A DNA stretch of 64,000 bases from Eledone cirrhosa. Taxonomy: Eukaryota. The stretch is from positions 7,068,001 through 7,132,000 of the forward strand of contig OZ024753.1 of the NCBI GenBank assembly GCA_964016885.1, given 5' to 3'. This document shows, one piece after another, positions 3,241-61,985 of this stretch. The notes beneath the pieces are model-generated. The model ran no database searches. It saw only the letters and a program-made list of their open reading frames with translations, and had not been told where the DNA came from. Position 1 is the stretch's first letter. Every line of letters starts with the position of its first letter. Both the position numbers and the translations under genes were made by a program.

Positions 3241-3362
3241 AATGTGTGAATGAGGCTAAAGATGAGAGAAGAGGTAAATATAAATGAGGTGGGTTTATTT
3301 AAAAAAAATAAAAGGTGAGAGTTGATGATATTAAATCAAAGATTGGTGGGGCAAATATTTGA

Positions 3363-4920
3363 TATACACTACAAGATTTACATATATACTTATCGGCATA
3401 AACATTTGAACTCACAATATAAAGCATCCTATTCAAATATATGTTATACACTACAAGATTTACATATATACTTATCGGCATAAACATTTGAACTCACAAT
3501 ATAAAGCATCCTATTCAAATATATGTTATACACTACAAGATTTACATATATACTTATCGGCATAAACATTTGAACTCACAATATAAAGCATCCTATTCAA
3601 ATATATGTTATACACTACAAGATTTACATATATACTTATCGGCATAAACATTTGAACTCACAATATAAAGCATCCTATTCAAATATATGTTATACACTAC
3701 AAGATTTACATATATACTTATCGGCATAAACATTTGAACTCACAATATAAAGCATCCTATTCAAATATATGTTATTCACTACAAGATTTACATATATACT
3801 TATCGGCATAAACATTTGAACTCACAATATAAAGCATCCTATTCAAATATATGTTATACACTACAAGATTTACATATATACTTATCGGCATAAACATTTG
3901 AACTCACAATATAAAGCATCCTATTCAAATATATGTTATACACTACAAGATTTACATATATACTTATCGGCATAAACATTTGAACTCACAATATAAAGCA
4001 TCCTATTCAAATATATGTTATACACTACAAGATTTACATATATACTTATCGGCATAAACATTTGAACTCACAATATAAAGCATCCTATTCAAATATATGT
4101 TATACACTACAAGATTTACATATATACTTATCGGCATAAACATTTGAACTCACAATATAAAGCATCCTATTCAAATATATGTTATACACTACAAGATTTA
4201 CATATATACTTATCGGCATAAACATTTGAACTCACAATATAAAGCATCCTATTCAAATATATATTATACACTACAAGATTTACATATATACTTATCGGCA
4301 TAAACATTTGAACTCACAATATAAAGCATCCTATTCAAATATATGATATACACTACAAGATTTACATATATACTTATCGGCATAAACATTTGAACTCACA
4401 ATATAAAGCATCCTATTCAAATATATGTTATACACTACAAGATTTACATATATACTTATCGGCATAAACATTTGAACTCACAATATAAAGCATCCTATTC
4501 AAATATATGTTATACACTACAAGATTTACATATATACTTATCGGCATAAACATTTGAACTCACAATATAAAGCATCCTATTCAAATATATGTTATACACT
4601 ACAAGATTTACATATATACTTATCGGCATAAACATTTGAACTCACAATATAAAGCATCCTATTCAAATATATGTTATACACTACAAGATTTACATATATA
4701 CTTATCGGCATAAACATTTGAACTCACAATATAAAGCATCCTATTCAAATATATGTTATACACTACAAGATTTACATATATACTTATCGGCATAAACATT
4801 TGAACTCACAATATAAAGCATCCTATTCAAATATATGTTATACACTACAAGATTTACATATATACTTATCGGCATAAACATTTGAACTCACAATATAAAG
4901 CATCCTATTCAAATATATGT
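3363..4920. repeat. 82-bp minisatellite, 19 copies
   Basis: Unit TATACACTACAAGATTTACATATATACTTATCGGCATAAACATTTGAACTCACAATATAAAGCATCCTATTCAAATATATGT; only about 3 substitutions seen. Confidence 0.98.
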
Positions 4921-5074
4921 TTCAACATTGTTGGAATGCTGACTAATTTCCCTACGTAATAAAACTAAATAAAATAACTCATGACATGATATTTCATTGC
5001 ATGTATCCTTAGAATAATTAAATTCACCTCTAAAACATGGAGAACTAATTCAGAATAATGTATGACCTCCGTTG

Positions 5075-14249: not shown

Positions 14250-14311
14250 GGACATAACAATTTTCGAGATGTTGAGGTGAGGCATAGTACACAAAAGGTT
14301 GGGAACTACTG
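14250..14311 (-). mobile_element. hAT/Charlie-like terminal inverted repeat (one end only)
   Basis: Reverse complement begins CAGTAGTTCCCAACCTTTT; partner end not found. Confidence 0.4.
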
Positions 14312-14457
14312 ATATTCAGGGATTGCCAATAAAAATTGTAATATATGTTTATAGCAAACATCTGTGAATTCGAAACTGTAAATGTTTAATATATCCATAT
14401 TTCTTTCTTTAATTATCAAGAATCCTGGAGAACCAATAATATAATAATATATATACA

Positions 14458-14539
14458 TGCTTTCTGAAGATCCGAACATTTCCATTGGAAGTCCCTAGAA
14501 TCTCCAATCTTTTGTGAGGTGAAACCGTCGGTAAAAGCA
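14458..14539 (+). ncRNA. Type I hammerhead motif with a long stem II insertion
   Basis: TGCTTT CTGAAGA TCC..(ATTGGA/TCCAAT)..GGT GAAA CCGTCGG TA AAAGCA; intact core, 6-bp stem I. Confidence 0.75.
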
Positions 14540-14988
14540 AAAGGAATAGGTCAATATTTAAATTATATTTTTTAATTTATTTTAAAAAATTGTTTGAATC
14601 TTGCTTGCTCCGCTTATCTCAATTTTATAGTTCTGGTATGTCAAATTAATACCATAGAACAACCACTGTATCATAGACACCCTATATATTTCGAGAGGTA
14701 TTTAGTACCTGTGGGGATATTGATCTCCTTTATATATATATATATGAGAAATAGGATTTCGCTTCAAGCATAGCTTTATACAATATGCATAGAAATACGA
14801 TTTTAGGAAGCCGTAGCTTCTGTTGGATAACACCAGAGGGCATTAGCCCCGGGTGTTCGCATAGCTACGGCTTTCTAAAATTGTTTTTCTTTCGAAATAC
14901 GAAATTTCTATACGAATTATATAAAGCTATGCTTGAAGCCGAATCCTATTTCTTTTCTATTATAAGTTGAGCCAACTTATGCAGCTTC

Positions 14989-15040
14989 ATATGCAAATGA
15001 GATTAATCAGCTCATTTACACAGACGAAAAAACTACATGT
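14989..15040 (+). promoter_or_regulatory. Octamer plus PSE/TATA-like candidate promoter
   Basis: ATATGCAAATGAG (identical 13-mer at 50659) followed by ACGAAAAAACTACATG. Confidence 0.5.
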
Positions 15041-15056
15041 TCTCGCCTGTTTTCAA

Positions 15057-15151
15057 GTCCAGCAGTCGCAGAGCAGTGGGAGGGATCGTCCTGACGATAG
15101 CCAGTCAAGCCTGAAATTCATAGACGGTTGTCCCCCTTGCTTCTGCTGGAC
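15057..15151 (+). ncRNA. Type I hammerhead ribozyme with extended stem I
   Basis: GATCGTC CTGACGA TAGC cagtcaa GCCT GAAA TTCA TA GACGGTT; distal pairs GGGA/TCCC and GTCCAGCAG/CTGCTGGAC. Confidence 0.85.
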
Positions 15152-15474
15152 AACACCAGCGAGCGTTAGTCCCCCCGGTGTTCGCATAGCTACGGCTTCC
15201 TAAAAACGTATTTCTTTCGAAATACAAATTTCTATACATATATACATATATATATATATTTTACTGGGAATTCTATAATCACAACTTTTAGTAGTGAACG
15301 TATTTTATAGAAGTTCGGATGTTTTATCTAACAGATAGCAAACTGAATGTTGGCAGGAGCGTTTTAGGGTTTCGATGAAATGATTTGATATATCTGTTCA
15401 GGGTATGTAAGTTGTTAGATTAAACACAATGATGTCAGCATGGCCTTTCATGCTCCCGAGGTCAGTATATTAAA

Positions 15475-15695
15475 GGGTTTCTGATTCAGACACAAGGACA
15501 ACAATTTGGCGGGAGAGGAGAAAGTCGATTAAATCGACCGCAGTGCGTTACTGGTACTTTATTTTATCGACTCCGTAAAGACGAATGGCAAAGTTAATCT
15601 CGTCGGGATTTGAACTGAGAACGTAAAGGGCCGTAACTATATGCCGCGAAGCATGTTGTCCAACGCTCTACCGATACTGCGGATACACCATCCGT
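15475..15695 (-). mobile_element. Main-family SINE, long tail
   Basis: Full head-to-tail match. Confidence 0.9.
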
Positions 15696-15749
15696 TGCCA
15701 AAAATAATACACCAACGAAGGACCGGGGTAGATTTAGTCATGTGTGAGA

Positions 15750-26599: not shown

Positions 26600-27298
26600 T
26601 TTTCTGATATAGGCACAGGGTCAGCAATTATCCCAGTGTATTACTGGTACTTTATTTTATCGACCACGTAACGATGAAAGCCAAAGTTAACACAATGGTT
26701 TCTGATATAGGAACAAGGCCAGCAATGATCCTAGTGTATTACTGGTACTTTATTTTATCGACCACGTAACGATGAAAGCCAAAGTTAACACAATGGTTTC
26801 TGATATAGGCACAAGGCCAGCAATGATCCTAGTGTATTACTGGTACTTTATTTTATCGACCCCGTAACGATGAAAGCAAAAGTTAACACAATGGTTTCTG
26901 ATATAGGCACAAGGTCAGCCTTATCCCAGTGTATTACTGGTACTTTATTTTATCGACCCCGTAACGATGATCGCCAAAGTTAACACAATGGTTTCTGATA
27001 TAGGCACAAGGCCAGCAATGATTCCAGTGTATTACTGGTACTTTATTTTATCGACCCCGTAACGATGAAAGCCAAAGTTAACACAATGGTTTCTGATATA
27101 GGCACAAGGCCAGCAATTATCCCAGTGTATTACTGGTACTATATTTTATCGACCCCGTAACGATGAAAGCCAAAGTTAACACAATGGTTTCTGATATAGG
27201 CACAAGGCAAGCAATGATCCCAGTGTATTACTGGTACTTTATTTTATCGACCCCCGTAAGTATGAAAGGCAAAGTTAACCTCGGCGGGATTTGAACTG
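26600..27298 (-). repeat. SINE-derived 98-bp tandem array, about 7 copies
   Basis: Unit is the SINE body and tail closed by CACAATGG; last unit continues into the B box. Confidence 0.95.
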
Positions 27299-28792: not shown

Positions 28793-28841
28793 TAACTCTG
28801 ATGAAATCGGCCTTATGCTAGGATGAAACGATCATTAGTTA
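28793..28841 (+). ncRNA. Hammerhead motif (stem III mismatch)
   Basis: TAACT CTGATGA A ATC..GAT GAAAC GATC ATT AGTTA. Confidence 0.6.
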
Positions 28842-28904
28842 TTAAATGTTTGAAAGATTAAACGCTCTTTGATTATTATTTACATTGTATGGATATATGC
28901 ACAT

Positions 28905-42552: not shown

Positions 42553-42995
42553 TGGTGGATTGGCAGTATCGGTAGAGCGTCAGATATTAGGCTTTGCAGC
42601 ATAGATTTATGGCCCGTTTCGTTTCGGGTTCAAATCCCGCCGAGGTTCACTCTAACTCTCATCCTTACGTGGTTCGATAAAATAAAGCACCAGTAATACA
42701 CTAGGGTAATTGCTGGCCTTGTGCCAAAAGTAGAAACAATTATACAAGCTACTGCAGTAATTAGGAGATTGCTTGCTCCCAACGGGAGTCGATATGGGGG
42801 TCGATAAAATAAAGTACCAGTAATACACTAGGGTAATTGCTGGCCTTGTGCCAAAAGTAGAAACAATTATACAAGCTACTGCAGTAATTAGGAGATTGCT
42901 TGCTCCCAACGGGAGTCGATATGGGGGTCGATGAAATAAAGTACCAGTAATACACTAGGGTAATTGCTGGCCTTGTGCCAAAAGTAGAAACAATA
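42553..42995 (+). mobile_element. SINE followed by 127-bp tandem duplications of its tail plus flank
   Basis: AACGGGAGTC at 42781 and 42908; three tail copies. Confidence 0.9.
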
Positions 42996-43119
42996 TATAT
43001 CTTTATTAACGCTGAATTTATTCATATTTGCCAATAATTGAAAAGCAGGATTAATCGGCGGGCAGGATTTGAACTCAGACCATAAAGGGCCGTAACTCTT
43101 TGCTGCAAAGCATGGCAAT

Positions 43120-44371: not shown

Positions 44372-44800
44372 ACTTGTTAATTTATATATTAGTATATATA
44401 CGTACATACATATATGTATACAGACGTAACTGTAGTATGTATATATATACATACATACATGCACACATATATATATGTACGTAAGGAAAGTATATACTTT
44501 CAGACGTTCAATCATCTGGCAGGAAGGTATACGTTGCTGACGATAGCTAATACGCTTGAAACTAGTACAGCGTTCCTTTGTCAGTGTTGAACAAACGAGC
44601 GACGATAGTTGCTAGACACTGTACGGCTTAATTCGGGATGTTTGTTTACAAACACACCGAGCATTATAATAAATGTTCGATGAATCCATACGTACATATA
44701 TATATATGTGTACATGTATGTATATATATATATATAACATACTACTGTACGTCTGTATACATATATGTATGTACGTATACATACTTATATTTAAGTAACA
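44372..44800. mobile_element. HHR cassette enclosed by about 115-bp inverted repeats
   Basis: 44372-44487 is the reverse complement of 44685-44800 (CAGACGTAACTGTAGTATG / CATACTACTGTACGTCTG). Confidence 0.8.
44506..44592 (+). ncRNA. Type I hammerhead ribozyme, intact core, extended stem I
   Basis: AAGG-TAT-ACGTTG CTGACGA TAGC taatac GCTT GAAA CTAG TA CAGCGT-T-CCTT; distal CTGGCA/TGTCAG and GTTCAA/TTGAAC. Confidence 0.9.
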
Positions 44801-50141: not shown

Positions 50142-50301
50142 ACCGACGCCATGCTTTGACGCATAGAGTTACGGCCCTTGCCATTCTGAGTTCAAATCGC
50201 GCCGAGGTTAACTTTGCCTTTCATCCTTACGGGGTCGGTAAAATAAAGTACCAGTAATACACTGTGTAATTGCTGGCCTTGTGCCTAACGTAGAAACAAT
50301 T
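50142..50301 (+). mobile_element. Short-tail SINE, 5' truncated
   Basis: Body and tail match. Confidence 0.9.
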
Positions 50302-50317
50302 ATATATATATTTAAGT

Positions 50318-50550
50318 AGAAGGAATATTAAATTTGTTGGTAATTCAACAAATATAAATGTTTATAACTGATTCAGAGCACTCAACAGTTATTCTGGAGT
50401 ATAATATACAATGATATAAAAATAAATGGAAACTATATTTATAAAACCATATTTATTCTATTATATATATTTCAAGGGTACAAAAAATGTTGGTACGCTA
50501 TCATCAGATAAAATATGAAGTGTGTTTTATAAATATTGACATAACCAAGG
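50318..50550 (-). mobile_element. HHR-bearing element family B, copy 1 (HHR 50454-50515)
   Basis: Minus strand: TATTTTAT CTGATGA TAGCGTAC..GTACCCTT GAAA TATATA TA ATAGAATA; collinear with 61730-61968. Confidence 0.8.
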
Positions 50551-50658: not shown

Positions 50659-50715
50659 ATATGCAAATGAGCATCCCAGGTAAACTTTCATCACCCGAAA
50701 CGAAATCTATATGGA
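50659..50715 (+). promoter_or_regulatory. Octamer plus PSE/TATA-like candidate promoter
   Basis: ATATGCAAATGAG, TCACCCGAAACGAAA at 50691, CTATATG at 50707. Confidence 0.5.
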
Positions 50716-50731
50716 GTATAGTCCATGCCCA

Positions 50732-50818
50732 TGTCAGTAACGGTTGAGTGAAAGCCTCTGACGAGAGGTTAATGAATCTTGAAACAGCGTTGTCTGGCAT
50801 TTTCGAACGCAACTGACA
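50732..50818 (+). ncRNA. Type I hammerhead ribozyme with extended stem I
   Basis: GCCT CTGACGA GAGGTT aatg AATCTT GAAA CAGCGTTG TC TGGC; distal TGTCAGT/ACTGACA. Confidence 0.85.
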
Positions 50819-51074
50819 GAATCTTTTACGGTTTCCCAGAGAAAGATAAAGAAACAATTTATCGTTACGAAAAAGTATTTTTTACCTTTGATACTGCGGC
50901 TAACATATGTTTATTGTACATAAACATATAATATATGACTTCATGCATACCCTATTATACTTAAATGCTTTCTTAGTGTTACTGTAAATAAAAGAATGTA
51001 TATATAGATATATATACAAGTATATATATATGAAAATGTATATATATATAAATATGTACGTATATATATATGTG

Positions 51075-55524: not shown

Positions 55525-55929
55525 TAATATATATATATTAATATATATATATATATGCGTACCAACACATACACAAACAATCATATGTACATATGTAGAT
55601 ATATGCATACACTAACTAGTACTAACAACCATGATATGCAGTTTCGTTGAGAAGCGTCTGAGAGTTATTATGATACATCTTGTTAAAGAGCTAGCGTGTA
55701 AATTGATAAATGTCGTTTCTTTCAATAGAGTGGCGCCATCTTAAGAAGAATGTTTTGGATTAAGAAGCTGATGTCTGTCTGTACAAAACAAGATAGGTAG
55801 GACTGCGGTAGGGTGATGACTATTCAGACGATAATGTATGTATTGTAATCATAATGGTATTTCTTTGCTTCCATCAAATCATTGTATTTTATTCAGGCGG
55901 ATTGGTTGGTACAATAGATGGCTAGTTAG

Positions 55930-58900
55930 ATGTTTGGTTGGAATAGTAAGGTGGTTAGTTGGTTGGTTGGAATAGTAGGGTGGTTAGTTGGTTGGTTGGA
56001 ATAGTACGGTGGTATAGCTGGTTGGTTGGAATAGTAGGGTGGTTAGCTGGTTGGTTGGAATAGTACGGTGGTATAGCTGGTTGGTTGGAATAGTAGGGTG
56101 GTATAGCTGGTTGGTTGGAATAGTAGGGTGTTTTAGCTGGTTGGTTGGAATAGTAGGGTGGTATAGCTGGTTGGTTGGAATAGTAGGGTGGTTAGCTGGT
56201 TGGTTGGTTGGAATAGTAGGGTGGTTAGCTGGTTGGTTGGAATAGTAGGGTGGTTAGCTGGTTGGTTGGTTGGAATAGTACGGTGGTATAGCTGGTTGGT
56301 TGGAATAGTAGGGTGGTATAGCTGGTTGGTTGGAATAGTAAGGTGGTATAGCTGGTTGGTTGGTTGGAATAGTACGGTGGTATAGCTGGTTGGTTGGAAT
56401 AGTAGGGTGGTATAGCTGGTTGGTTGGAATAGTAAGGTGGTATAGCTGGTTGGTTGGAATAGTAGGGTGGTATAGCTGGTTGGTTGGAATAGTAGGGTGT
56501 TTTAGCTGGTTGGTTGGAATAGTAGGGTGGTATAGCTGGTTGGTTGGAATAGTAGGGTGTTTTAGCTGGTTGGTTGGAATAGTAGGGTGGTATAGCTGGT
56601 TGGTTGGAATAGTAGGGTGGTTAGCTGGTTGGTTGGTTGGAATAGTAGGGTGGTTAGCTGGTTGGTTGGTTGGAATAGTAGGGTGGTTAGCTGGTTGGTT
56701 GGTTGGAATAGTAGGGTGGTATAGCTGGTTGGTTGGAATAGTAGGGTGGTTAGCTGGTTGGTTGGTTGGAATAGTAGGGTGGTATAGCTGGTTGGTTGGA
56801 ATAGTAGGGTGGTTAGCTGGTTGGTTGGTTGGAATAGTAGGGTGGTTAGCTGGTTGGTTGGTTGGAATAGTAGGGTGGTATAGCTGGTTGGTTGGAATAG
56901 TAGGGTGGTTAGCTGGTTGGTTGGTTGGAATAGTAGGGTGGTATAGCTGGTTGGTTGGAATAGTAGGGTGGTTTAACTGGTTGGTTGGAATAGTAGGGTG
57001 GTTAGATGTTTGGTTGGAATAGTAGAGTGGTTAGATGTTTGGTTGGAATAGTACGGTGGTATAGCTGGTTGGTTGGAATAGTAGGGTGGTATAGCTGGTT
57101 GGTTGGAATAGTAGGGTGGTTAGCTGGTTGGTTGGTTGGAATAGTAGGGTGGTTAGCTGGTTGGTTGTAATAGTAGGGTGGTATAGCTGGTTGGTTGGAA
57201 TAGTAGGGTGGTATAGCTGGTTGGTTGGAATAGTAGGGTGGTATAGCTGGTTGGTTGGAATAGTAGGGTGGTTAGTTGGTTGGTTGGAATAGTACGGTGG
57301 TATAGCTGGTTGGTTGGAATAGTAGGGTGGTATAGCTGGTTGGTTGGAATAGTAGGGTGGTTAGCTGGTTGGTTGGTTGGAATAGTAGGGTGGTTAGTTG
57401 GTTGGTTGGAATAGTAGGGTGGTATAGCTGGTTGGTTGGAATAGTATGGTGGTTAGCTGGTTGGTTGGAATAGTACGGTGGTATAGCTGGTTGGTTGGAA
57501 TAGTAGGGTGGTATAGCTGGTTGGTTGGAATAGTAGGGTGGTTAGTTGGTTGGTTGGAATAGTAGGGTGGTATAGCTGGTTGGTTGGAATAGTAGGGTGG
57601 TATAGCTGGTTGGTTGGAATAGTAGGGTGGTATAGCTGGTTGGTTGGAATAGTAGGGTGGTTAGTTGGTTGGTTGGAATAGTAGGGTGGTATAGCTGGTT
57701 GGTTGGAATAGTAGGGTGGTATAGCTGGTTGGTTGGAATAGTAGGGTGGTATAGCTGGTTGGTTGGAATAGTAGGGTGGTATAGCTGGTTGGTTGGAATA
57801 GTAGGGTGGTATAGCTGGTTGGTTGGAATAGTAGGGTGGTATAGCTGGTTGGTTGGAATAGTACGGTGGTATAGCTGGTTGGTTGGAATAGTAGGGTGGT
57901 TAGTTGGTTGGTTGGAATAGTAGGGTGGTATAGCTGGTTGGTTGGAATAGTAGGGTGGTATAGCTGGTTGGTTGGAATAGTAGGGTGGTATAGCTGGTTG
58001 GTTGGAATAGTACGGTGGTATAGCTGGTTGGTTGGAATAGTACGGTGGTATAGCTGGTTGGTTGGAATAGTAGGGTGGTTAGTTGGTTGGTTGGAATAGT
58101 AGGGTGGTATAGCTGGTTGGTTGGAATAGTACGGTGGTATAGCTGGTTGGTTGGAATAGTAGGGTGGTATAGCTGGTTGGTTGGAATAGTACGGTGGTAT
58201 AGCTGGTTGGTTGGAATAGTAGGGTGGTATAGCTGGTTGGTTGGAATAGTAGGGTGGTTAGTTGGTTGGTTGGAATAGTAGGGTGGTATAGCTGGTTGGT
58301 TGGAATAGTAGGGTGGTATAGCTGGTTGGTTGGAATAGTAGGGTGGTATAGCTGGTTGGTTGGAATAGTACGGTGGTATAGCTGGTTGGTTGGAATAGTA
58401 GGGTGGTATAGCTGGTTGGTTGGAATAGTAGGGTGGTTAGTTGGTTGGTTGGAATAGTAGGGTGGTATAGCTGGTTGGTTGGAATAGTAGGGTGGTATAG
58501 CTGGTTGGTTGGAATAGTAGGGTGGTATAGCTGGTTGGTTGGAATAGTAGGGTGGTATAGCTGGTTGGTTGGAATAGTAGGGTGGTATAGCTGGTTGGTT
58601 GGAATAGTAGGGTGGTATAGCTGGTTGGTTGGAATAGTAGGGTGGTATAGCTGGTTGGTTGGAATAGTACGGTGGTATAGCTGGTTGGTTGGAATGGTAG
58701 GGTGGTTAGTTGGTTGGTTGGAATAGTAGGGTGGTATAGCTGGTTGGTTGGAATAGTAGGGTGGTATAGCTGGTTGGTTGGAATAGTAGGGTGGTATAGC
58801 TGGTTGGTTGGAATAGTACGGTGGTATAGCTGGTTGGTTGGAATAGTAGGGTGGTATAGCTGGTTGGTTGGAATAGTAGGGTGGTTAGCTGGTTGGTTGG

Positions 58901-61255
58901 AATAGTAGGGTGGTTAGTTAGATGTTTGGTTGGAATAGTAGGGTGGTTAGTTGGTTGGTTGGAATAGTAGGGTGGTATAGCTGGTTGGTTGGAATAGTAG
59001 GGTGTTTTAGCTGGTTGGTTGGAATAGTAGGGTGGTTAGCTGGTTGGTTGGTTGGAATAGTAGGGTGGTTAGCTGGTTGGTTGGTTGGAATAGTAGGGTG
59101 GTTAGCTGGTTGGTTGGAATAGTAGGGTGGTTAGCTGGTTGGTTGGAATAGTAGGGTGGTTAGCTGGTTGGTTGGTTGGAATAGTAGGGTGGTTAGCTGG
59201 TTGGTTGGTTGGAATAGTAGGGTGTTTTAGCTGGTTGGTTGGAATAGTAGGGTGGTATAGCTGGTTGGTTGGAATAGTAGGGTGGCTAGCTGGTTGGTTG
59301 GAATAGTAGGGTGGTATAGCTGGTTGGTTGGAATAGTAGGGTGGTTAGCTGGTTGGTTGGTTGGAATAGTAGGGTGGTATAGCTGGTTGGTTGGAATAGT
59401 AGGGTGGTTAGCTGGTTGGTTGGTTGGAATAGTAGGGTGGTTAGCTGGTTGGTTGGTTGGAATAGTAGGGTGGTTAGCTGGTTGGTTGGTTGGAATAGTA
59501 GGGTGGTATAGCTGGTTGGTTGGAATAGTAGGGTGGTTAGCTGGTTGGTTGGTTGGAATAGTAGGGTGGTTAGCTGGTTGGTTGGTTGGAATAGTAGGGT
59601 GGTATAGCTGGTTGGTTGGAATAGTAGGGTGGTTAGCTGGTTGGTTGGTTGGAATAGTAGGGTGGTTAGCTGGTTGGTTGGTTGGAATAGTAGGGTGTTT
59701 TAGCTGGTTGGTTGGAATAGTAGGGTGGTATAGCTGGTTGGTTGGAATAGTAGGGTGGTTAGCTGGTTGGTTGGTTGGAATAGTAGGGTGGTTAGTTGGT
59801 TGGTTGGAATAGTAGGGTGGTTAGCTGGTTGGTTGGAATAGTAGGGTGGTATAGCTGGTTGGTTGGAATAGTAGGGTGGTTAGCTGGTTGGTTGGTTGGA
59901 ATAGTACGGTGGTATAGCTGGTTGGTTGGAATAGTAGGGTGGTATAGCTGGTTGGTTGGAATAGTAGGGTGGTTAGCTGGTTGGTTGGTTGGAATAGTAG
60001 GGTGGTTAGTTGGTTGGTTGGAATAGTAGGGTGGTTAGCTGGTTGGTTGGAATAGTAGGGTGGTATAGCTGGTTGGTTGGAATAGTAGGGTGGTTAGCTG
60101 GTTGGTTGGTTGGAATAGTAGGGTGGTTAGCTGGTTGGTTGGTTGGAATAGTAGGGTGGTATAGCTGGTTGGTTGGAATAGTAGGGTGGTTAGCTGGTTG
60201 GTTGGTTGGAATAGTAGGGTGGTATAGCTGGTTGGTTGGAATAGTAGGGTGGTTAGATGTTTGGTTGGAATAGTACGGTGGTATAGCTGGTTGGTTGGTT
60301 GGAATAGTAGGGTGGTTAGCTGGTTGGTTGGTTGGAATAGTAGGGTGGTTAGCTGGTTGGTTGGAATAGTAGGGTGGTTAGATGTTTGGTTGGAATAGTA
60401 GGGTGGTTAGATGTTTGGTTGGAATAGTACGGTGGTATAGCTGGTTGGTTGGAATAGTAGGGTGGTTAGCTGGTTGGTTGGAATAGTAGGGTGGCTAGCT
60501 GGTTGGTTGGTTGGAATAGTAGGGTGGTATAGCTGGTTGGTTGGAATAGTAGGGTGGTTAGCTGGTTGGTTGGAATAGTAGGGTGGTATAGCTGGTTGGT
60601 TGGATAGTAAGGTGGTTTAGCTGGTTGGTTGGAATAGTAGGGTGGTTAGCTGGTTGGTTGGAATAGTAGGGTGGTTAGCTGGTTGGTTGGAATAGTAGGG
60701 TGGTTAGCTGGTTGGTTGGAATAGTAGGGTGGTATAGCTGGTTGGTTGGAATAGTAGGGTGGTATAGCTGGTTGGTTGGAATAGTAGGGTGGTTATCTTG
60801 TTGGTTGGAATAGTAGGGTGGTTAGCTGGTTGGTTGGTTGGAATAGTAGGGTGGTTAGCTGGTTGGTTGGTTGGAATAGTAGGGTGGTTAGCTGGTTGGT
60901 TGGTTGGAATAGTAGGGTGGTTAACTGGTTGTTTGGTTGCAATAGTAGGGTGGTTAGCTGGTTGGTTGGAATAGTAGTGTGGTTAGCTGGTTGGTTGGAA
61001 TAGTAGGGTGGTTATCTTGTTGGTTGGAATAGTAGTGTGGTTAGCTGGTTAGTTGGAATAGTAGGGTGGAATAGCTGGTTGGTTGGAATAGTAGGGTGGT
61101 TAGCTGGTTGGTTGGAATAGTAGGGTGGTTAGTTGGTTGGTTGGAATAGTAGGGTGGTTAGTTGGTTGGTTGGAATAGTAGGGTGGTTAGCTGGTTGGTT
61201 GGAATAGTAGGGTGGTTAGCTGGTTGGTTGGAATAATAGGGTGGTTAGGTGGTTG
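55930..61255. repeat. G-rich satellite, 29/30/33-bp units, about 5.3 kb
   Basis: GGAATAGTAGGGTGG(TA/T)TAGCTGGTTGGTT(GGTT). Confidence 0.98.
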
Positions 61256-61398
61256 GTAGGTTGGTAGGCTGGTCGGATGGTCGGATGTTGGGCTGGTTAG
61301 CTTGTTGGATGGACGGATGGTAGGTTGGTAAATATGTTTAGGCTTACCATTTTTGTTATATATTACCGTCTAATCTCCCTATATTATTTATAGTGGAT

Positions 61399-61590
61399 GG
61401 CGGTGAATTGGCAGTATCGGTAGAGGGTCGGACGCCATGCTTTGACGCATAGAGTTACGGCCCTTGCCATTCTGAGTTCAAATCCCGCCGAGGTTAACTT
61501 TGCCTTTCATCCTTACGGGGTCGATAAAATAAAGTACCAGTAATACACTGGGAAATTGCTGGCCTTGTGCCAAAAGTAGAAACAATTATT
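61399..61590 (+). mobile_element. Full-length short-tail SINE with target-site duplication
   Basis: ATTATTTATAGTGGAT on both sides (61383 and 61586). Confidence 0.95.
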
Positions 61591-61729: not shown

Positions 61730-61968
61730 TTCTTGGTGAGGAGGGTCACTATTTATAAAACAAATTTTGTATTTTATCTGATGAAAGCGCACCAAGACTG
61801 CCTTGGTTACCCTCGAAATATATATAATAAAATAATTATGGTTTTATAAATATAGTTTCCATTTATTAATATATTGAATATTTGCTCCAGTAATTTATTG
61901 AGTGCTCTATATCAGTTACAAACCTTTAAGTTTGTTGGAATCCCAACAAATTAAATATAACTCCTGCA
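61730..61968 (+). mobile_element. HHR-bearing element family B, copy 2
   Basis: Homologous to 50318-50550 in opposite orientation; ends in (TA)n. Confidence 0.8.
61770..61834 (+). ncRNA. Type I hammerhead motif, intact core
   Basis: TATTTTAT CTGATGA AAGCGC ACCAAG actgc CTTGGT TACCCTC GAAA TATATA TA ATAAAATA. Confidence 0.8.
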
Positions 61969-61985
61969 TATATATACATACAAAC

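What the first reader, a model, noticed from the sequence alone, without database searches (positions are those of the whole stretch)
14748..15238. Best-preserved retrozyme-like insertion: 324-bp monomer, partial tandem and inverted 5' piece
One unit carries octamer, TATA-like box and HHR. About 95 bp is repeated at both ends, an inverted segment precedes it, and (TA)n flanks both sides. Partial-tandem plus inverted 5' architecture is typical of PLE insertions, yet there is no coding sequence, and the size matches satellite 2 and retrozyme monomers. It predicts a roughly 324-nt RNA or circle joined at the AUA site (15120-15122).
Basis: partly seen in the sequence, partly recalled or inferred. 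Interest (0 to 1): 0.8.

Follow-up and report, generated by a model that had tools for sequence, protein, structure and literature searches.

The report
Decayed solo retrozyme with Penelope-type ends
This is one old, mutated copy of an abundant 324-base non-coding repeat that carries a self-cutting-RNA motif and was likely pasted in by Penelope-type jumping-gene enzymes; with a single damaged ribozyme motif it would not itself make the small RNA circle, so it is mostly an ordinary relic of a known kind of element.

Summary
The layout is real. A 72-nt inverted arm (14747-14818) meets a 422-nt direct arm of 1.3 units (14816-~15237; 98/99-nt end repeats, 87 of 100 columns identical). There is one type I hammerhead core (15091-15122), short (TA)n tracts on both sides, and no coding match. 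The inverted arm runs about 40 nt past the right end, like the Penelope 'tail'. Public runs hold thousands of related contigs. Their majority letters give a palindromic helix III (AUGCAU), a better-paired helix II, and a TATATA box 43 nt after the octamer; this copy has lost all three (about 7% diverged). A second, otherwise unalignable hammerhead element at 50659-50820 shows nearly the same octamer-TATA-cleavage spacing.

The predicted 324-nt circle cannot come from this locus, which has one hammerhead. It may come from multi-unit family members, which I could not show. No RNA was tested. Best reading: a dead solo copy of a retrozyme-like, non-autonomous Penelope element, likely reverse-transcribed across a cleavage junction. 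This scan has already reported younger two-armed retrozyme arrays and the promoter cassette on other DNA of this genome; this 324-nt family had no sequence look-alike there.

The parts
14731..14745 (.). left (TA)n tract, likely insertion target
   Evidence: sequence
14747..14818 (-). inverted, 5'-truncated arm: unit 14863-14953 with a 19-nt deletion between two ATTTCT words; its outer ~40 nt are the 'tail' beyond the right end
   Evidence: 64 of 72 letters identical
14816..14818 (.). 3-nt overlap (GCT) where the two arms meet
14816..14913 (+). upstream partial repeat R1, starting 17 nt 3' of the cleavage position; carries no hammerhead
14914..15237 (+). one full 324-nt unit, 43% GC, non-coding
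   Evidence: related contigs cover all 29 bins of 14747-15237 in X1 and X2
14914..14953 (+). ~40-nt segment that forms the tail on the left arm
   Evidence: one RAD-run loose end into (AT)n at 14954, 99 reads, probably one locus
14989..15001 (+). extended octamer ATATGCAAATGAG (octamer 14991-14998)
   Evidence: 13-mer occurs only here and at 50659; highest summed-depth bin is 14985-15001
15034..15039 (+). decayed TATA box: TACATG here; majority letters at 15036 and 15039 give TATATA
15057..15151 (+). long hairpin enclosing the hammerhead (9-bp perfect base, 15057-15065 with 15143-15151)
   Evidence: fold -39.6 kcal/mol, z -2.8, 2 of 200 shuffles as good
15091..15122 (+). type I hammerhead core; helix II with two mismatches; helix III AUUCAU (majority AUGCAU); predicted cut after 15122
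15139..15237 (+). downstream repeat R2; the 3' end merges with the TA tract (boundary 15233-15241)
   Evidence: 25 contigs in X1 have loose ends running into (AT)n/(AC)n from 15225
15238..15259 (.). right TA-rich tract
   Evidence: sequence

Best explanation
This is a decayed, single-hammerhead copy of an abundant 324-nt non-coding repeat family, likely a retrozyme-type passenger of Penelope-like elements that was likely reverse-transcribed into a (TA)n tract and would not release a monomer or circle itself. Inferred cycle for the family: an internal octamer + TATA block would start transcription near the base of the hammerhead hairpin (about 15057-15065). In copies of two or more units, two hammerheads would pair through the palindromic helix III and cut after AUA. 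The 324-nt piece would be ligated to a circle. A Penelope RT/GIY-YIG enzyme supplied in trans would cut a TA tract and prime from both DNA ends at two sites about 40 nt apart. Here one end likely copied about 91 nt (left arm) and the other 422 nt (right arm), passing once across the cleavage junction, and the two arms joined at a 3-nt overlap. Shown: layout, motifs, multi-copy family, this copy's departures from the majority. Inferred: promoter function, cleavage, circle, identity of the enzyme, two-ended priming.
For: The layout matches the PLE description in PMC8557442 (partial tandem, inverted 5'-truncated copy, 30-40-bp tail at one end, microsatellite bias; passages); here the tail is about 40 nt. 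Family: 3557, 3400, 40 and 1495 records laid in X1, X2, X4 and X7 (X1 and X2 are one sample); every bin is covered in X1 and X2, and overlapping pieces of 130-210 nt tile the unit. Shared right end: 25 contigs in X1 continue from 15225 into TATACATATAT. Signs of selection on the ribozyme: 15118 reads G in 464 of 468 and 53 of 55 reads of X5 and 333 of 336 and 28 of 33 of X7, giving AUGCAU; the window's 44537 element has a different perfect palindrome, ACUAGU. A subfamily seen in loose ends has helix II GAAC/GUUC where the majority has (A/U)GGC/GCCU, so paired positions change on both sides (table 7). A U-U pair at the base of helix II and a one-pair helix III with a palindromic tetraloop are described for axolotl retrozymes (PMC7229834). 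Promoter block: octamer-to-TATA 43 vs 47 nt, TATA-to-cut 88 vs 86 nt, octamer-to-cut 131 vs 133 nt in this element vs the 50758 element, although the two hardly align overall (2 of 300 shuffles score as well); the chance of an octamer in a given 21-nt slot is about 0.0015. Age: 36 changed places in 491 nt against X1, about 7%, which fits the 13% between R1 and R2 if both decayed from one template. No RT or GIY-YIG match in 150 of 167 complex ORFs of 55 aa or more in the window.
Against: No molecule with two hammerheads or a whole unit plus junction was seen; no listed piece spans the stretch. The longest listed piece across 14913/14914 has only 26 letters on the short side (X4 record 17), below the tool's 31-letter bridging rule. 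640 loose ends and 35 joints were not shown, so a minority of copies attached to coding sequence is not excluded. The tail end at 14953-14954 rests on this copy, one RAD stack and one contig joint. Rfam hammerhead models do not hit. The runs hold at most 0.32 of the words and may be a related population or species. In the 2026 preprint only 1 of 9 tested dimer elements cleaved in vitro, so motif presence does not ensure activity. No partner PLE was identified.
Confidence: 0.75

Rival explanations
1. The unit is only the truncated terminus (pseudo-LTR) or an internal-deletion product of a coding Penelope-like element, copied from that element's linear RNA, with no independent 324-nt RNA cycle.
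For: Same layout and tail as coding PLEs; single hammerheads are mostly attributed to truncated PLEs (PMC4209133); Xenopus retrozymes match pLTRs.
Against: The end-to-end period is 324 nt with no ORF; the best-supported loose ends show subfamily variants and TA tails, not one shared outside sequence. The hammerhead is canonical (4-bp helix II, long helix I), unlike the minimal PLE type at 50470 and 61778, which does not align with it (tested for the 50470 copy).
Confidence: 0.12
2. Same family and enzyme, but the template was a linear uncut 1.3-2-unit transcript (or the RT jumped between cut monomers), not a circle.
For: The right arm stops 17 nt short of the second cleavage position, as it would near the 5' end of a linear RNA cut there; a weak helix III makes single hammerheads cut poorly.
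Against: One copy cannot separate the routes; circles are the main form in coral, mussel and axolotl retrozymes.
Confidence: 0.35
3. This very locus is active and yields a 324-nt RNA or circle.
For: Core nucleotides and helix I are intact; the 324-nt stretch folds well as a circle, z -3.3, 0 of 100 shuffles as low.
Against: One hammerhead only; helix II has 2 of 4 pairs, the helix III palindrome is broken, and the TATA box is changed at two places. About 83 more nt upstream would be needed for a second hairpin.
Confidence: 0.04
4. A DNA-level repeat (MITE-like or satellite-derived) whose inverted ends and ribozyme-like motif are incidental.
For: The two ends do form a 28-nt inverted pair.
Against: The inverted arm is an internal part of the unit with a staggered end, not a terminal inverted repeat; palindrome and helix changes are compensatory; descriptor hits far exceed shuffles.
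Confidence: 0.03

Closest known systems
Metazoan non-LTR retrozymes (coral, mussel, axolotl; PMC7229834, passages and parts 3-4 of 6 read; preprint 10.64898/2026.07.22.740005, parts 1-3 of 5 read)
   Same: Non-coding unit of 170-400 nt, GC under 45% (43% here), canonical type I hammerhead with weak palindromic helix III, U-U variant at the helix II base, dispersed solo 'monomer' copies described, PLE proposed as mobiliser.
   Different: This locus has 1.3 units and one hammerhead, so it fails the preprint's 'active' definition; RNA not shown. It carries an octamer + TATA block, whereas a 2020 review passage says metazoan retrozymes do not seem to harbour promoters (PMC7761336).
EN+ Penelope-like elements and their non-autonomous derivatives (PMC8557442 passages; PMC4209133 parts 1-2 of 4)
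   Same: Partial tandem, inverted 5'-truncated copy, tail of about 40 nt at one end, TA microsatellite target, hammerhead in the terminal repeat.
   Different: No RT/GIY-YIG ORF; canonical rather than minimal hammerhead; partner clade not identified (Naiads target (TA)n but are reported to lack canonical hammerheads).
Newt satellite 2 (Coats, Zhang and Epstein 1994; only its title and one citing sentence seen)
   Same: About 330-nt hammerhead unit with an internal Pol II promoter and a one-pair helix III.
   Different: That promoter is called snRNA-type. Here the octamer lies only about 43 nt before a TATA box, closer to an octamer-TATA mRNA-type layout (recalled comparison with H2B and immunoglobulin promoters, not tested). 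Large tandem arrays not shown here.

Membership tests
Non-LTR retrozyme | type I hammerhead with conserved core | tested here: met
   core, GAAA, AUA and 7-bp helix I present; helix II and III degraded in this copy, better paired in majority letters; no Rfam hit
Non-LTR retrozyme | small non-coding unit (about 170-400 nt, GC under 45%) | tested here: met
   324 nt, 43% GC, longest frame 88 aa without Pfam hit
Non-LTR retrozyme (active element) | at least two consecutive units each with a complete hammerhead, at this locus | tested here: not met
   1.3 units, one hammerhead; filed only as a solo (monomer) derivative in the preprint's sense
Non-LTR retrozyme (family level) | dimers or multimers exist elsewhere in the genome | tested here: inconclusive
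   no genome held; related records run from R into the tail (joints) but no listed piece spans a whole unit
Non-LTR retrozyme | self-cleavage and circular RNA in vivo | not testable with these tools
   needs bench work or RNA reads
Penelope-type insertion | partial tandem plus inverted 5'-truncated copy | tested here: met
Penelope-type insertion | 30-40-bp tail at one end only | tested here: met
   left arm ends about 40 nt beyond the right end; the right boundary is uncertain by about 4 nt either way
Penelope-type insertion | microsatellite target shared by copies | tested here: met
   TA tracts at both ends; 25 contigs in X1 with the same right end
Autonomous Penelope-like element | RT plus GIY-YIG ORF | tested here: not met
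   no such hit in 150 of 167 complex ORFs of 55 aa or more in the window; heavily broken remnants could be missed
Newt satellite 2-type promoter | snRNA-type promoter (octamer plus proximal element; recalled) | tested here: inconclusive
   octamer present and spacing to TATA conserved in two elements; no proximal element tested, transcription not tested

The most novel reading that the evidence does not exclude
The family is a self-promoted retrozyme: each 324-nt unit carries its own octamer-TATA promoter aimed at the base of the hammerhead hairpin, a layout kept across otherwise unalignable families in this genome, and this copy is a fossil of a Penelope reverse transcriptase priming from both ends of a TA break and reading across the ligated cleavage junction of a circular RNA.
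Probability: 0.4. Interest if true: 0.6.

Novelty: new member of a known kind. Interest (0 to 1): 0.33.

Why it matters
As a locus it matters little: it is old, has one damaged hammerhead and cannot give the predicted circle. As a family it adds a 324-nt member to a retrozyme set in a probable cephalopod genome. No paper describing cephalopod retrozymes turned up in two searches ('octopus' + 'hammerhead ribozyme', 5 papers, 4 listed; 'cephalopod' + 'retrozyme', 2 papers, 1 listed; listings only, apart from PMC8557442), and the O. vulgaris repeat annotation has 0 occurrences of ribozyme, retrozyme or hammerhead in its main text. The supplement of PMC7229834, which lists more invertebrate retrozymes, could not be read. 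The useful points are testable: fixed ends 40 nt apart tie the family to Penelope enzymes, a link so far proposed from co-occurrence and phylogeny, and the conserved octamer-TATA spacing bears on how retrozymes are transcribed. Younger multi-unit arrays already noted in this genome are better material for both tests.

Tried and rejected
No whole genome is held, so copy number, arrays and coding neighbours could not be counted. Sequencing-run search: no RNA holder listed; no evidence either way. Rfam: 0 hits at gathering score in the window; 5 sub-threshold hits of unrelated families in 14600-15400, taken as chance. BLAST of 14747-15222 against the window found no second copy at E 0.05; the first attempt was swamped by TA repeats. 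The 44537 element aligns weakly but above all 300 shuffles; the 50758 element does not (2 of 300); the minimal-hammerhead element at 50470 does not (292 of 300). One search was dominated by a very abundant repeat at 15475-15700, so it was repeated on the element alone. Summed contig depth was not used as a copy number. TATAAAG at 14920-14926 as the promoter TATA was considered and set aside: it lies upstream of the octamer, and the 15034 site has the spacing shared with the 50758 element. A-to-I editing scars: no excess (3 of 36 changed places have G in this copy and A in X1). In one search the cleavage position of the 50758 element was entered one base too far; one search corrects it. The left flank 14455-14730 does not align with the element or with the 61778 or 28798 elements. 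The three-sequence alignment was too poor for pair counts and was not used. The searches for the newt promoter and for two-ended priming gave nothing relevant in their listings beyond one citing paper; the 1994 newt paper was not read.

Full report
Observation. 14816-14913 and 15139-15237 are a direct repeat (87 of 100 columns identical; 0 of 300 shuffles), giving a 324-nt unit (14914-15237). 14747-14818 is an inverted copy of unit 14863-14953 with a 19-nt deletion between two ATTTCT words (64 of 72 letters identical). The arms overlap by 3 nt (GCT, 14816-14818). Both outer ends run into short TA tracts (14731-14745; about 15238-15259). The octamer is at 14991-14998. A type I hammerhead core lies at 15091-15122 with AUA at 15120-15122 and 7 contiguous pairs in helix I, inside a long hairpin with a perfect 9-bp base. 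A core-plus-helices descriptor gives 5 hits in the window against a null mean of 0.03. Rfam does not recognise it. The longest frame in the element is 88 aa; 150 of the 167 complex ORFs of 55 aa or more in the window were scanned, with no RT or GIY-YIG match and only two below-cutoff hits in one distant ORF.

The family. No genome is held and the window has no second close copy, so I laid public runs. Thousands of related records lie on the element (3557, 3400, 40, 1495 in X1, X2, X4, X7; X1 and X2 are one sample), while the flanks 14300-14346 and 15240-15427 have almost no depth. All 29 bins are covered in X1 and X2, and overlapping pieces tile the unit. The runs hold at most 0.32 of the words, so they may be a related population or species. 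The host is probably a cephalopod; this rests on a recalled likeness of the repeat at 15475-15700 to an octopus SINE and on earlier scan notes, and was not tested.

What the majority letters show. This copy differs from X1 at 36 places in 491 nt at 30% share or more, about 7%, which fits the 13% between its two end repeats. Three groups of differences fall on functional motifs. (a) 15118 is G in nearly all reads (464 of 468 and 53 of 55 in X5; 333 of 336 and 28 of 33 in X7), making helix III the palindrome AUGCAU that would let two hammerheads pair; this copy has AUUCAU. (b) 15099 is G in most and 15098 is A in about half of the X1 depth, so helix II has 3-4 pairs in the family and 2 here; a subfamily in the loose ends has GAAC/GUUC, with changes on both sides of the helix. 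(c) 15036 and 15039 give TATATA at 15034, 43 nt after the octamer and 23 nt before the base of the hairpin. The element at 50659-50820 has the same 13-mer (found only twice in the window) and nearly the same spacings (47 nt octamer to TATA, 86 vs 88 nt TATA to cut, 133 vs 131 nt octamer to cut) although it barely aligns otherwise. The element at 44491-44594 has TATATA 76 nt before its cut and a different helix III palindrome, ACUAGU, but no octamer.

Ends. In X1, 25 contigs leave the reference at 15225 and continue with a TATACATATAT-type tail, so the right end is shared with other copies. The left arm ends about 40 nt further along the unit (14953). Independent support for that second end is thin: one RAD stack of 99 identical reads at 14954 and one contig joint. 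Two ends about 40 nt apart, a partial tandem, an inverted 5'-truncated copy and a microsatellite target are the PLE features described in PMC8557442 (passages).

Mechanism. Inferred for the family: internal promoter, transcription through two or more units, paired hammerhead cleavage after AUA, ligation to a circle (by analogy with PMC7229834, parts 3-4 of 6), then copying by a Penelope enzyme in trans. The reading that both DNA ends primed comes partly from earlier scan notes and fits this copy's layout; it is not shown. One point follows from the sequence if the copy arose by reverse transcription: the right arm crosses the cleavage position once, 115 nt from its 3' end, so the template was not a single cut linear monomer read once. 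It was a circle, an uncut longer RNA, or involved a jump. The arm stops 17 nt short of the second cleavage position, which a linear template cut there would also explain; one copy cannot decide.

The upstream repeat lacks the hammerhead, so the locus has one ribozyme motif, with helix II, helix III and the TATA box all degraded. It would not release a 324-nt monomer. The prediction applies only to multi-unit members, which short contigs could not show: no listed piece spans a whole unit, and the longest listed piece across the unit junction has 26 letters on its short side. No RNA data were available. 640 loose ends were not displayed, so a coding partner that shares the terminus is not excluded.

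Comparison and novelty. It works like a metazoan non-LTR retrozyme and looks like a non-autonomous PLE insertion. It fails the 'two complete hammerheads' test of the 2026 preprint (parts 1-3 of 5; supplements not seen), which also describes solo monomer copies and argues that animal retrozymes derive from PLEs. PMC4209133 (parts 1-2 of 4) already proposes circles as templates for more-than-unit copies. An internal promoter is known for newt satellite 2 (title and citing sentence only), while a review passage says retrozymes seem to lack promoters. This scan has already reported two-armed retrozyme arrays of 310-478 nt and the octamer-TATA cassette in this genome (349 notes fit the words, 8 shown); these are unchecked notes. 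The 324-nt unit had no look-alike by sequence and nothing was noted nearby.

Verdict. Real, well explained, a new member of a known kind, and a poor specimen of it. Interest 0.33.

Noticed in passing
window 44491-44594 (+): Second canonical hammerhead element: TATATA at 44491, core 44537, perfect helix III palindrome ACUAGU, GUA triplet 44565-44567; weakly related to the 324-nt unit. It sits between 106-nt inverted repeats (44375-44480 and 44692-44800, 97 of 111 columns identical).
   Followed up: partly
window 50659-50820 (+): Third hammerhead element with the same extended octamer, TATA-like box at 50708, core 50758, 3-4-bp helix III and GUC triplet 50792-50794; helix I degraded.
   Followed up: partly
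window 50313-50549 (-) and 61732-61970 (+): Two copies (193 of 244 columns identical) of a separate element with a minimal PLE-type hammerhead (long helix II, GAAA-TATA-TA), next to TA tracts. The 50470 copy lies back to back with the 50758 element.
   Followed up: partly
window 28798-28845 (+): Another hammerhead-descriptor hit between two (TA)n arrays; no clear alignment to the 61778 element (8 of 200 shuffles as good).
   Followed up: partly
window 14441-14722: The left flank is itself a multi-copy repeat bounded by TA-rich tracts; on the minus strand it has GAAA-TATA-TA near 14682-14693, possibly a cut-off minimal hammerhead. It does not align with the other elements tested.
   Followed up: partly
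window 15475-15700, also 26601-27279, 42674-42999, 50150-50300, 61400-61590: Very abundant short repeat (summed depth about 20 times the element's peak), recalled as an octopus-type SINE; tandem forms of 98 and 127 nt occur.
   Followed up: no
window 55927-61257: 5.3-kb array of a 30-nt G-rich unit (175 copies, 91% matches) with strong GC skew.
   Followed up: no
window 3352-4921: Very homogeneous 82-nt minisatellite, 19 copies, 99% matches.
   Followed up: no
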